NCBI GenBank assembly: GCA_964016885.1
Contig: OZ024766.1
Span: 3,720,001 to 3,784,000, forward strand
Reading direction: 5' to 3'
DNA length: 64,000 nucleotides
Source of the DNA: Eledone cirrhosa
Taxonomy: Eukaryota
Shown here: positions 46,871-49,927 of the stretch, in pieces
Position numbering within the stretch: position 1 is the first letter of the stretch
Layout: the number at the start of each line of letters is the position of its first letter
Notes under the pieces: generated by a model
What the model was told of the DNA's origin: nothing
Database searches by the model: none
What the model saw: the letters and a program-made list of their open reading frames with translations, nothing else
Made by a program: the position numbers and the translations under genes

Positions 46871-48369
46871 TGGTTTACCACTTGGGGTCTCCTGCCAGTT
46901 GATTATGCCCATAAAATCTATCCTGGAATATATGATATTACTCAAGGGAAAGGGCTGATATAACTTGGCATCTGTGTCATCGCTATATACATTTCTTGAT
47001 AGACTTATCCCTGGCAGGGTCCTCAAACACACCTTTCAACAGGTCCTGTCAGAAGCAACCATCTCCAACTGATCTGGCTGGATACCCAAGAGAGAGACCA
47101 ACCAAGCTCATGGATGTTATCTAACCATCTTGCTCAAGGTCTACCTCTAGGTCTCCTGCTGGTTGGTTTCGCCCATAAAATCTGTCCAGAGATTCTTTCC
47201 TCAGACATTCTAACCACATGTCTGTAGTATCAGAGCTGTGGTCTCTCAATTCAGAGATTCTTTCCTGAGACATTCTAACCACATGTCTGTAGTATCAGAG
47301 CTGTGGTCTCTCAATTCAGAGATTCTTTCCTGAGACATTCTAACCACATGTCTGTAGTATCAGAGCTGTGATCTCTCAATCCAGAGATTCTTTCCTGAGA
47401 CATTCTAACCACATGTCTGTAGTATCAGAGCTGTGATCTCTCAATCCAGAGATTCTTTCCTGAGACATTCTAACCACATGTCTGTAGTATCAGAGCTGTG
47501 GTCTCTCAATTCAGAGATTCTTTCCTGAGACATTCTAACCACATGTCTGTAGTATCAGAGCTGTGATCTCTCAATTCAGAGATTCTTTCCTGAGACATTC
47601 TAACCACATGTCTGTAGTATCAGAGCTGTGATCTCTCAATTCAGAGATTCTTTCCTGAGACATTCTAACCACATGTCTGTAGTATCAGAGCTGTGATCTC
47701 TCAATTCAGAGATTCTTTCCTGAGACATTCTAACCACATGTCTGTAGTATCAGAGCTGTGATCTCTCAATTCAGAGATTCTTTCCTGAGACATTCTAACC
47801 ACATGTCTGTAGTAACAGAGCTGTCATCTCTCAATTTGAAGTAGTAGCAGCTCTACCTGGAGTGACTCTCTGATTTCTGAGCTACAAATCTGTCCAGTGA
47901 TTCTTTCTTGAGACATTCTAACCCCTAAATATATATATATTTATATACATAAATATATATATATACATAAATATATATAATAATTGTTTCTACTTTTGGC
48001 ACAAGGCCAGCAATTACCCAGTGTATTACTGGTACTTTATTTTATCTACCCCATAAGGATGAAAGGCAAAGTTAACCTCAGCGGGATTTGAACTCAGACC
48101 ATAAAGGGCCGTAACTCTTTGCTGCAAAGCATGGTGTCCTATTATATATAAATATATATAATAATAATACTATTTATAGTTATGTATATAGTATAAACAA
48201 CTATAAACAGGAAGGTCAGTAATTTCCTTATTACCAGTAAGAGAAATAGCTCAATGTAAGAAGATCAGTTGTTTTACAGAGCATATTATATATATATATA
48301 TATATATTAGAAAGTGAGGTTTTTTTTTACAAAATGAAAAATAACCGAGGTGTCCTACACGAGTGAAAG

Positions 48370-48643
48370 TATAAAGAAAAAGAGATGAAATCGAAAATGC
48401 AACTGAAGTCTTATTTTTAAAAAAAATATATATATTTATTTGGTTCCTTTACCGGTTTCGCAGTTCTTCTGCTTTTCAAAAGGTGAGTTGAGATGGAGGG
48501 TCTGTGAGAAAAACCACAGACCCTCCATCTCAACTCTACTTTTGAAAAGCAGAAGAACTGCGAAACCGGTAAAGGAACCAAATAAATATATATATTTAAA
48601 AAAAAAAATAAGACTCCAGTTGCATTTTCGATTTCATCTCTTT

Positions 48644-48650
<7 letters not shown>
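48370..48650. repeat. Long near-perfect inverted repeat (arms about 135 bp, loop about 8 nt)
   Basis: ...gagatggagggtctgtg agaaaaac cacagaccctccatctc... Confidence 0.9.
48446..48483 (-). ncRNA. Variant hammerhead ribozyme with U3-A8 core (UUGAAAA)
   Basis: CCUU-UUGAAAA-GCAG(AAGAA)CUGC-GAAA-CCGG-U-A-AAGG. Mirror copy at 48539-48574 (+) and a decayed copy at about 2772-2807 (+). Confidence 0.6.
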
Positions 48651-49040: not shown

Positions 49041-49215
49041 CAAAGGAATTGTGGTAAGGAATCAGATGGACCATAACGCACCAGAGTACTCAATACTTAG
49101 GGTAGTAGAGTGGGAAATAGGAAAAAGTATGACCCCGACGGTAGAGCTCAAGCCGTTTTTTGACTCCAGAAATAGCCGTCAAAACGTCTTGAGCTCTGCC
49201 GTCGGGGCCATACTT

Positions 49216-49272
<57 letters not shown>

Positions 49273-49799: not shown

Positions 49800-49927
49800 A
49801 TAGGAACGAGTAGGACCCCGACGGCTGAGCTCAAGCCGTTTCGACGGTTAATTCTGGACTAAATTTAGTCCAGAATTAGCCGTCGAAACGGCTCGAGCTC
49901 AGCCGTCGGGGTCCTACTCGTTCCTAT
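49800..49927. repeat. Spacer-less palindrome with 64-bp arms
   Basis: Centred on ggactaaa|tttagtcc, with two mismatches. Confidence 0.9.

What the first reader, a model, noticed from the sequence alone, without database searches (positions are those of the whole stretch)
48370..48650. U3-A8 variant hammerhead present on both strands of a giant hairpin
Seen: each arm of an inverted repeat with arms of about 135 bp contains (C)CUU-UUGAAAA-GCAG(AAGAA)CUGC-GAAA-CCGG-U-A-AAG(G). A third copy at about 2772-2807 keeps UUGAAAA. Known: positions 3 and 8 of the hammerhead core form a tertiary pair, and C3-G8 can be replaced by U3-A8. Inference: a variant-core family that a CUGANGA search would miss, with a palindromic stem III (ACCGGU) implying dimer cleavage. 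The minus-strand copy is sense to the PKA-C pre-mRNA but would be sequestered by the long hairpin.
Basis: partly seen in the sequence, partly recalled or inferred. Interest (0 to 1): 0.7.

Follow-up and report, generated by a model that had tools for sequence, protein, structure and literature searches.

The report
Inverted Penelope stub with variant hammerheads
The hairpin is two back-to-back end pieces of a very abundant Penelope-like jumping gene, each carrying an already described two-base variant of a hammerhead self-cutting RNA, and this copy in a kinase intron is predicted to be locked shut and is likely inert.

Summary
Observation confirmed, novelty low. The inverted repeat and both U3-A8 hammerhead motifs are there. 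[quoted passage not shown] The 35-base motif has 10,714 exact genomic copies; 44 of the first 100 lie in such head-to-head pairs, and 22 of 22 pairs examined have the PLE 'tail' on one arm only. U3-A8 is family-fixed (0 C3-G8 among 99 non-U3 copies), and a sister family shows compensatory stem I/II changes. U3-A8 in PLE hammerheads, opposite-strand pairs and dimer cleavage are published (PMC4209133). The copy sits in PKA-C intron 1; folding the ribozyme there costs 61 kcal/mol and no same-strand partner was found in that intron. Cleavage is untested; copies do not pile up at the cut site. Side results: the sister family (6,212 copies) reads GCAA for the core GAAA, and both families join two ORFs through a U-UUU-UUA heptamer. 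The scan found this kind of stub before in two other genomes.

The parts
48307..48506 (-). Left arm: 5'-truncated 3' end (pLTR) of the Penelope-like element, long form with tail, abutting (TA)n
   Evidence: 96% identical over 206 columns to the pLTR of full-length copy L063
48307..48371 (-). PLE tail, about 63-65 nt between the two alternative 3' ends; present on this arm only
   Evidence: 63 nt in L063; one-arm-only in 22 of 22 pairs
48446..48483 (-). Type I hammerhead motif, U3-A8 core, 4-bp stem I, 4-bp stem II, palindromic stem III ACCGGU; predicted cut after 48450; sense to PKA-C pre-mRNA
48503..48506 (.). Inversion junction: 4-nt microhomology (TGTG) shared by both arms
   Evidence: sequence; arm limits
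48503..48648 (+). Right arm: 5'-truncated pLTR, short form without tail, abutting (TA)n
   Evidence: 96.7% over 150 columns to L063
48539..48574 (+). Second hammerhead motif, U3 at 48542, 3-bp stem I, predicted cut after 48571; antisense to PKA-C
2586..2872 (+). Third copy: older subfamily B pLTR stub with degenerate hammerhead (2772-2807), between PKA-C exons 4 and 5, antisense to the gene
   Evidence: 75% to L063; subfamily; exon motifs
26119..26180 (-). PKA-C exon 2 (62 nt); marks the 3' end of the about 59-kb intron 1 that holds the hairpin (exon 1 lies beyond the window, at window-equivalent 85,519-85,474)
   Evidence: exon 3 peptide matches PKA catalytic subunit, E 7e-14

Best explanation
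The hairpin is a head-to-head pair of truncated 3' ends of a Penelope-like retrotransposon inserted in a (TA)n tract of PKA-C intron 1, and it is likely inert because each hammerhead is predicted to be locked by the opposite arm. Likely origin: the element's RT-endonuclease cut both strands of AT-rich DNA and began reverse transcription from both ends at the RNA's two start sites (one giving the tail, one not); both cDNAs stopped about 40-50 nt upstream of the hammerhead and were joined at a 4-nt microhomology. In the parent element the U3-A8 motif would cleave slowly as a dimer, two pLTR copies pairing through ACCGGU, to process tandem transcripts; the copies that reach the genome are mostly made from uncut RNA. 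Shown: family, copy number, parent ORFs, pair geometry, tail asymmetry, core fixation, host intron. Inferred: the two-ended insertion route. Untested: any cleavage.
For: Upstream sequence of longer copies leads into GIY-YIG and RT frames; Pfam RVT_1 E 8.7e-07 (just under its cut-off) and GIY-YIG E 9.8e-07; L063 has two direct hammerheads 5,009 bp apart with the ORF starting about 200 nt after the first. 10,714 exact copies. Of the first 100 listed, 22 divergent pairs, 2 direct, 1 convergent within 6 kb. Tail on exactly one arm in 22 of 22 pairs (21 of those 22 fetched, plus the window) and 7 of 8 longer pairs. Arms share the same subfamily variant in 20 of 22 pairs against 65% expected, p 0.006. 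Structure support across families: sister family C (58% amino-acid identity) changes stem I CCUU/AAGG to UUUU/AAAA and stem II GCAG/CUGC to GCAU/AUGC, keeping U3-A8 and ACCGGU; co-folding two family A motifs pairs them through stem III (-22.5 against -7.5 per monomer). Forcing stems I and II in the pre-mRNA strand costs 60.7 kcal/mol and the blocking arm is transcribed first; no other same-strand copy was found in intron 1. Published: PMC4209133, PMC8557442, PMC3846280, PMC11167929.
Against: No cleavage data. 5' junctions at the predicted cut site are not clearly enriched: 13 of 30 loci (of 294 matches) against 7 of 30 (of 372) at a control position 14 nt upstream, Fisher p 0.17; by the stricter letter test 19 of 100 against 14 of 100, p 0.45. 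Pairwise mutagenesis of one type III hammerhead found only the G-C swap, not U-A, to rescue the 3-8 pair (PMC9901934), though PMC3088659 cites U3-A8 as active in vitro. Sister family C amplified with GCAA (98 of 100 listed of 6,212) and subfamily B with a weak stem II. The window's own arms carry different variants (one of 2 discordant pairs), so a single template is not certain here. In 3 of the 22 pairs the tail-less arm breaks off before the usual short end. PMC3846280 proposes self-priming instead of two-ended priming.
Confidence: 0.9

Rival explanations
1. Same origin as a PLE stub, but in this lineage the hammerhead-shaped motif no longer needs to cut: it is kept as a fold whose palindromic stem III pairs two template RNAs (or binds the protein) for two-ended insertion.
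For: Family C keeps both stems by compensatory change and the palindrome but has C at core position 13 in 98 of 100 listed copies of 6,212; no pile-up of copies at the cut site; catalytic mutants of the anole PLE hammerhead did not affect insertion in vitro (PMC11167929).
Against: All other core letters are kept in families A, B and C; two unrelated U3-A8 motifs and many C3-G8 families in the fetched loci keep a matched 3-8 pair, which points to catalysis; the cost of A13C is recalled, not sourced (searches found no paper).
Confidence: 0.2
2. The hairpin has been co-opted by the host: double-stranded RNA in PKA-C intron 1 that is edited, diced or toggles self-cleavage and so tunes PKA-C.
For: It lies in intron 1, minus copy sense to the pre-mRNA; about -200 kcal/mol duplex.
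Against: One of thousands of alike, recent insertions (96% to the parent); ribozyme fold strongly disfavoured; no partner copy found in the intron.
Confidence: 0.04
3. A MITE (fold-back DNA transposon) in TA, the hammerhead likeness being incidental.
For: Near-perfect inverted repeat flanked by TA runs.
Against: Arms are unequal, 5' junctions vary from copy to copy, single-arm copies are common, and the arm continues into RT and GIY-YIG frames.
Confidence: 0.01

Closest known systems
Hammerheads of metazoan Penelope-like elements, incl. the U3-A8 variant of Schistosoma mansoni Cercyon elements (Cervera and De la Pena 2014, PMC4209133; parts 1-2 of 4 of the text read)
   Same: Type I motif in the pLTR, U3-A8 core (about 1,300 hits reported there), small palindromic helix III, mostly single truncated copies, pairs on opposite strands, dimer mode with low activity
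   Different: Stem II is the canonical 4 bp with no extra base before it (7-8 bp with a bulge in S. mansoni); stem III has 2 bp and a 2-nt loop; copy number is far higher; a sister family carries A13C
Neptune/Nematis-type EN+ Penelope-like elements (Craig et al. 2021, PMC8557442; Introduction and passages read)
   Same: RT, CX2-5CxxC linker, C-terminal GIY-YIG with two cysteines inside, pLTRs in partial tandem, inverted 5'-truncated copies, tail on one end, (TA)n targets
   Different: Tail about 63 nt rather than 30-40; coding region split into two ORFs at a conserved U-UUU-UUA heptamer, whereas the abstract speaks of a single ORF for EN+ PLEs (the Fig. 1 legend allows a frameshifted ORF1 without my being able to see for which clade)
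Poseidon element of Anolis (Frangieh et al. 2024, PMC11167929; parts 1-2 of 4 read)
   Same: Both DNA strands cut and extended, two internal RT start sites bounding the tail, uncut RNA as the main template
   Different: Different clade, C3-G8 core, hammerhead overlaps the start codon; here it lies about 200 nt upstream
Natural U3-A8 hammerheads (Perreault et al. 2011, PMC3088659; section 8 and passages read)
   Same: C3-G8 covaries to U3-A8
   Different: Not tied there to this element family

Membership tests
Type I hammerhead ribozyme | Core 3-U-G-A-N-8-A, GAAA, UH with a Watson-Crick 3-8 pair | tested here: met
   UUGAAAA / GAAA / UA in both arms; 10,714 exact copies
Type I hammerhead ribozyme | Stems I, II, III supported by covariation | tested here: met
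   Compensatory changes in stems I and II between families A and C; stem III invariant and so uninformative; subfamily B stem II weakened. Few independent events.
Type I hammerhead ribozyme | Self-cleavage after H17 | not testable with these tools
   Indirect fossil test inconclusive
Type I hammerhead ribozyme | Loop I - loop II tertiary contact | not tested
   Stem I is 3-4 bp and no loop 1 contact was looked for
Dimer-type PLE hammerhead | Short palindromic stem III and two direct copies on one transcript | tested here: met
   ACCGGU; direct pLTR pairs in L063 (5,009 bp), L202 (4,726 bp), L207 (4,898 bp). Not met by the window hairpin itself, whose copies are on opposite strands.
Penelope-like element, EN+ | RT followed by C-terminal GIY-YIG | tested here: met
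   (in the parent copies, not in the window stub)
Penelope-like element, EN+ | pLTRs in tandem or inverted, tail on one end | tested here: met
Neptune (or Nematis) clade | CX2-5CxxC linker between RT and EN | tested here: met
   CGRSNCGTC upstream of IYAIKCKGCNEDYIG
Neptune (or Nematis) clade | Placement in an RT tree with reference elements | not tested
   No reference set was fetched; Neptune versus Nematis is open
Non-LTR retrozyme | Non-coding tandem units each with a hammerhead | tested here: not met
   Unit is about 5 kb and coding; short copies are single or inverted
MITE | Uniform length with equal terminal inverted repeats | tested here: not met
   Arm spacing 77-4,188 bp, unequal ends

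The most novel reading that the evidence does not exclude
This PLE lineage is turning its hammerhead from an enzyme into an RNA-pairing signal: U3-A8 in family A, a weakened stem II in B and A13C in C would be steps of catalytic decay while stems and the ACCGGU palindrome are kept, because the palindrome dimerises two templates for the two-ended insertion, much as a retroviral dimer-initiation site does. Three natural variants with thousands of copies make the open question of what PLE hammerheads are for directly testable.
Probability: 0.18. Interest if true: 0.62.

Novelty: new member of a known kind. Interest (0 to 1): 0.24.

Why it matters
As a locus it matters little: one of thousands of transposon stubs. 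As a family it gives a clean natural series (U3-A8; U3-A8 with weak stem II; U3-A8 with A13C) for asking whether PLE hammerheads must cleave, a point the papers read leave open, and a large count of one-tail inverted pairs that fits two-ended priming. It also shows that C3-G8-only searches miss well over ten thousand motifs in this genome.

Tried and rejected
Rfam scan: no hammerhead family among the 150 rows shown. C3-G8 twin with the same stem II: 0 matches. Splicing idea (a GT donor overlapping the cut site and an AG acceptor about 98 nt on): no precisely spliced DNA copy; the 1 match is a microhomology deletion; not decisive, as PLEs retain introns. Cut-site pile-up of 5' ends: looked promising (three loci mis-oriented there, redone) but did not beat the control; denominators of the two patterns were not measured. 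Expression: no RNA holder listed. Laying four runs' contigs showed only that the repeat is abundant; no piece spans the hairpin. The alignment holds one mis-placed row (L145) and one duplicate (L128), both ignored. NCBIfam gave only a weak group II RT match. Three papers asked for by recalled id were not held, among them Lunse et al. 2017 on dimeric PLE hammerheads (recalled only). Literature searches for A13C and for a slippery site in PLEs (no hit contained 'slippery') found nothing; the library lacks most subscription papers. No supplements were read; those of PMC4209133 and PMC8557442 may list cephalopod elements or such variants. Sequence look-up in earlier findings: none; frameshift words: none.

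Full report
Observation. The stretch 48370-48650 is an inverted repeat whose arms align at 92% over 138 columns. A scan of both strands of the window for hammerhead cores with any paired 3-8 letters returned seven motifs: three U3-A8 (2775 +, 48542 +, 48479 -) and four C3-G8 (6041 +, 40882 +, 41300 -, 54228 +).

Family. A DNA search of the own genome (3.0 Gb) gave 47 matches from 40 scored candidates; their 3' ends abut (TA)n or (TC)n(TA)n and their 5' ends vary, many with an inverted second piece. An exact 35-letter pattern has 10,714 matches, the reversed control 0. With the rest of the motif fixed, 99 copies have a letter other than U at position 3 and all 99 keep A8; 47 have U3 with a letter other than A at 8; no C3-G8 motif with the same stem II was found. 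U3-A8 is thus fixed by descent and the variants look like scattered later mutations.

Parent. Sequence upstream of longer copies runs into a frame with a CX4CxxC linker and a GIY-YIG domain, and further up RT motifs; Pfam gives RVT_1 (E 8.7e-07, 29.3 bits against a cut-off of 29.6) and GIY-YIG (E 9.8e-07); the atlas's nearest clusters are eukaryotic RT/GIY-YIG proteins. Of 17 ten-kb loci fetched, L063 holds a whole unit: hammerhead, ORF start about 200 nt later, body, second hammerhead 5,009 bp after the first. Both window arms are 96-97% identical to its pLTR. This is an EN+ Penelope-like element of Neptune/Nematis type by its linker (PMC8557442); no tree was made.

The hairpin. Among the first 100 exact matches (contig C1), neighbours within 6 kb were 22 divergent pairs, 2 direct and 1 convergent; 14 of the 22 lie 77-157 bp apart, as in the window (93). 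The element has two 3' ends 63 nt apart. In 21 of those 22 pairs (one was not fetched) plus the window pair, exactly one arm has the longer end, 22 of 22; in three the other arm breaks off early. Eight longer pairs gave 7 of 8. Arms carry the same diagnostic variant in 20 of 22 pairs (65% expected; p 0.006), the window being one of the two exceptions. Inverted 5'-truncated copies and a tail at one end are described PLE traits (PMC8557442; PMC3846280), and the anole element cuts and extends both strands from two RT start sites that bound the tail (PMC11167929). I infer two-ended priming with joining at the TGTG microhomology (48503-48506); self-priming, proposed in PMC3846280, is not excluded.

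Is the motif a real hammerhead fold? The third window copy belongs to an older subfamily B (25 loci, 85-91% to the query apart from itself) with G10.1-U11.1 and a 3-bp stem II; its 38-nt motif matches family A at 35 places. A sister family C (58% amino-acid identity over RT-EN) has at the same pLTR position UUUU/AAAA for stem I and GCAU/AUGC for stem II, the same U3-A8 and ACCGGU, but GCAA for GAAA: 6,212 copies, 98 of 100 listed with C. In 864 kb of fetched DNA a generic scan found 55 C3-G8 motifs of many families, nearly all with palindromic stem III, and two further unrelated U3-A8 motifs; the loci overlap and were chosen for family A, so these are not genome rates. Two family A motifs co-fold through stem III. 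The fold is therefore supported; catalysis is not shown. The literature is mixed: U3-A8 is cited as active in vitro (PMC3088659), but was not a rescue in one pairwise mutagenesis (PMC9901934); PLE dimers cleave weakly (PMC4209133). That A13 is an essential core base is my recall; two searches found no paper.

Fossil test of cleavage. If cut RNA were often copied, 5' ends should pile up at GUA/AAGG. A pattern for copies intact from the cut site but broken just before it had 294 matches, 13 of 30 fetched being junctions, 4 indels or duplications, the rest substitutions; the same design 14 nt upstream had 372 matches, 7 of 30 junctions (one locus flagged by the script in each set was re-classed by eye and not counted). 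Extrapolated 127 against 87, p 0.17. At most about 1% of copies start there; most were made from uncut RNA, as in the anole system.

Host gene. PKA-C exons lie on the minus strand near 26180, 9430, 3610 and 2480 (PDB match E 7e-14). A 46-nt first exon (MGNAATAKKG...) followed by GT lies 21.5 kb beyond the window, so the hairpin is in a 59-kb intron 1 and the minus copy is sense. In that strand the blocking arm is made first, the stem II pair has a probability near 1e-18, and forcing stems I and II costs 60.7 kcal/mol. No other family A, B or C motif on that strand was found in the intron.

Known or new. PMC4209133 reports U3-A8 in PLE hammerheads, pairs on opposite strands and the dimer model; it was the only paper found with the term U3-A8, and a search for octopus, Penelope and hammerhead gave no paper whose title or abstract start describes this family (listing only). 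That the genome is a cephalopod's is my impression from recalled repeats and the scan's notes, not tested. Earlier scan notes describe the same kind of stub in two other genomes and two-armed, two-ended insertions in this one; I had this reading before seeing them (note). Verdict: a new member of a known kind, locally inert. The parts worth a second look are the A13C sister family and the frameshift junction.

Noticed in passing
L202:3125-3140, L232, L061-L063 (parent elements, outside the window): Families A and C both split their coding region at a conserved U-UUU-UUA heptamer. In family C the zero frame is open 442 codons up to it and stops 13 codons later; the -1 frame opens 9 codons before it (no Met) and runs 775 codons through RT and GIY-YIG in L202. 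Family A: up to 387 codons before, stop 23 after, -1 frame opens 6 codons before; 7 of 8 family A copies checked have this phase. Likely programmed -1 frameshifting in an EN+ PLE; a weak hairpin follows in A, none in C.
   Followed up: partly
L179, L182, L202:1633 and 6359; 6,212 genome matches: Sister family C: hammerhead fold kept by compensatory changes, U3-A8, but core GCAA instead of GAAA in 98 of 100 listed copies; its short inverted pairs often have the same 111-bp spacing.
   Followed up: partly
L006 and L022: Two unrelated U3-A8 hammerhead motifs with other stems and UC cut triplets, suggesting the swap arose more than once in this genome.
   Followed up: no
window 6041 (+), 40882 (+), 41300 (-), 54228 (+): Canonical C3-G8 hammerheads of other repeat families, with palindromic stem III in most.
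   Followed up: no
window 49124-49216 and 49801-49926: Two more fold-back elements of another repeat family beside TA runs; probably inverted stubs of a different element.
   Followed up: no
window 48503 and many copies: 5' ends of short copies cluster about 40-55 nt upstream of the hammerhead core, at a small self-complementary stretch; possible transcript start or fold-back hot spot. The sample was biased by the query.
   Followed up: no
G000:C1:348.86-348.95 Mb (L110-L116): A C3-A8 variant copy repeated at about 9.6-kb spacing, i.e. carried in a tandem segmental array.
   Followed up: no
window 47502-47836: Near-perfect 65-bp tandem repeat just upstream of the finding.
   Followed up: no
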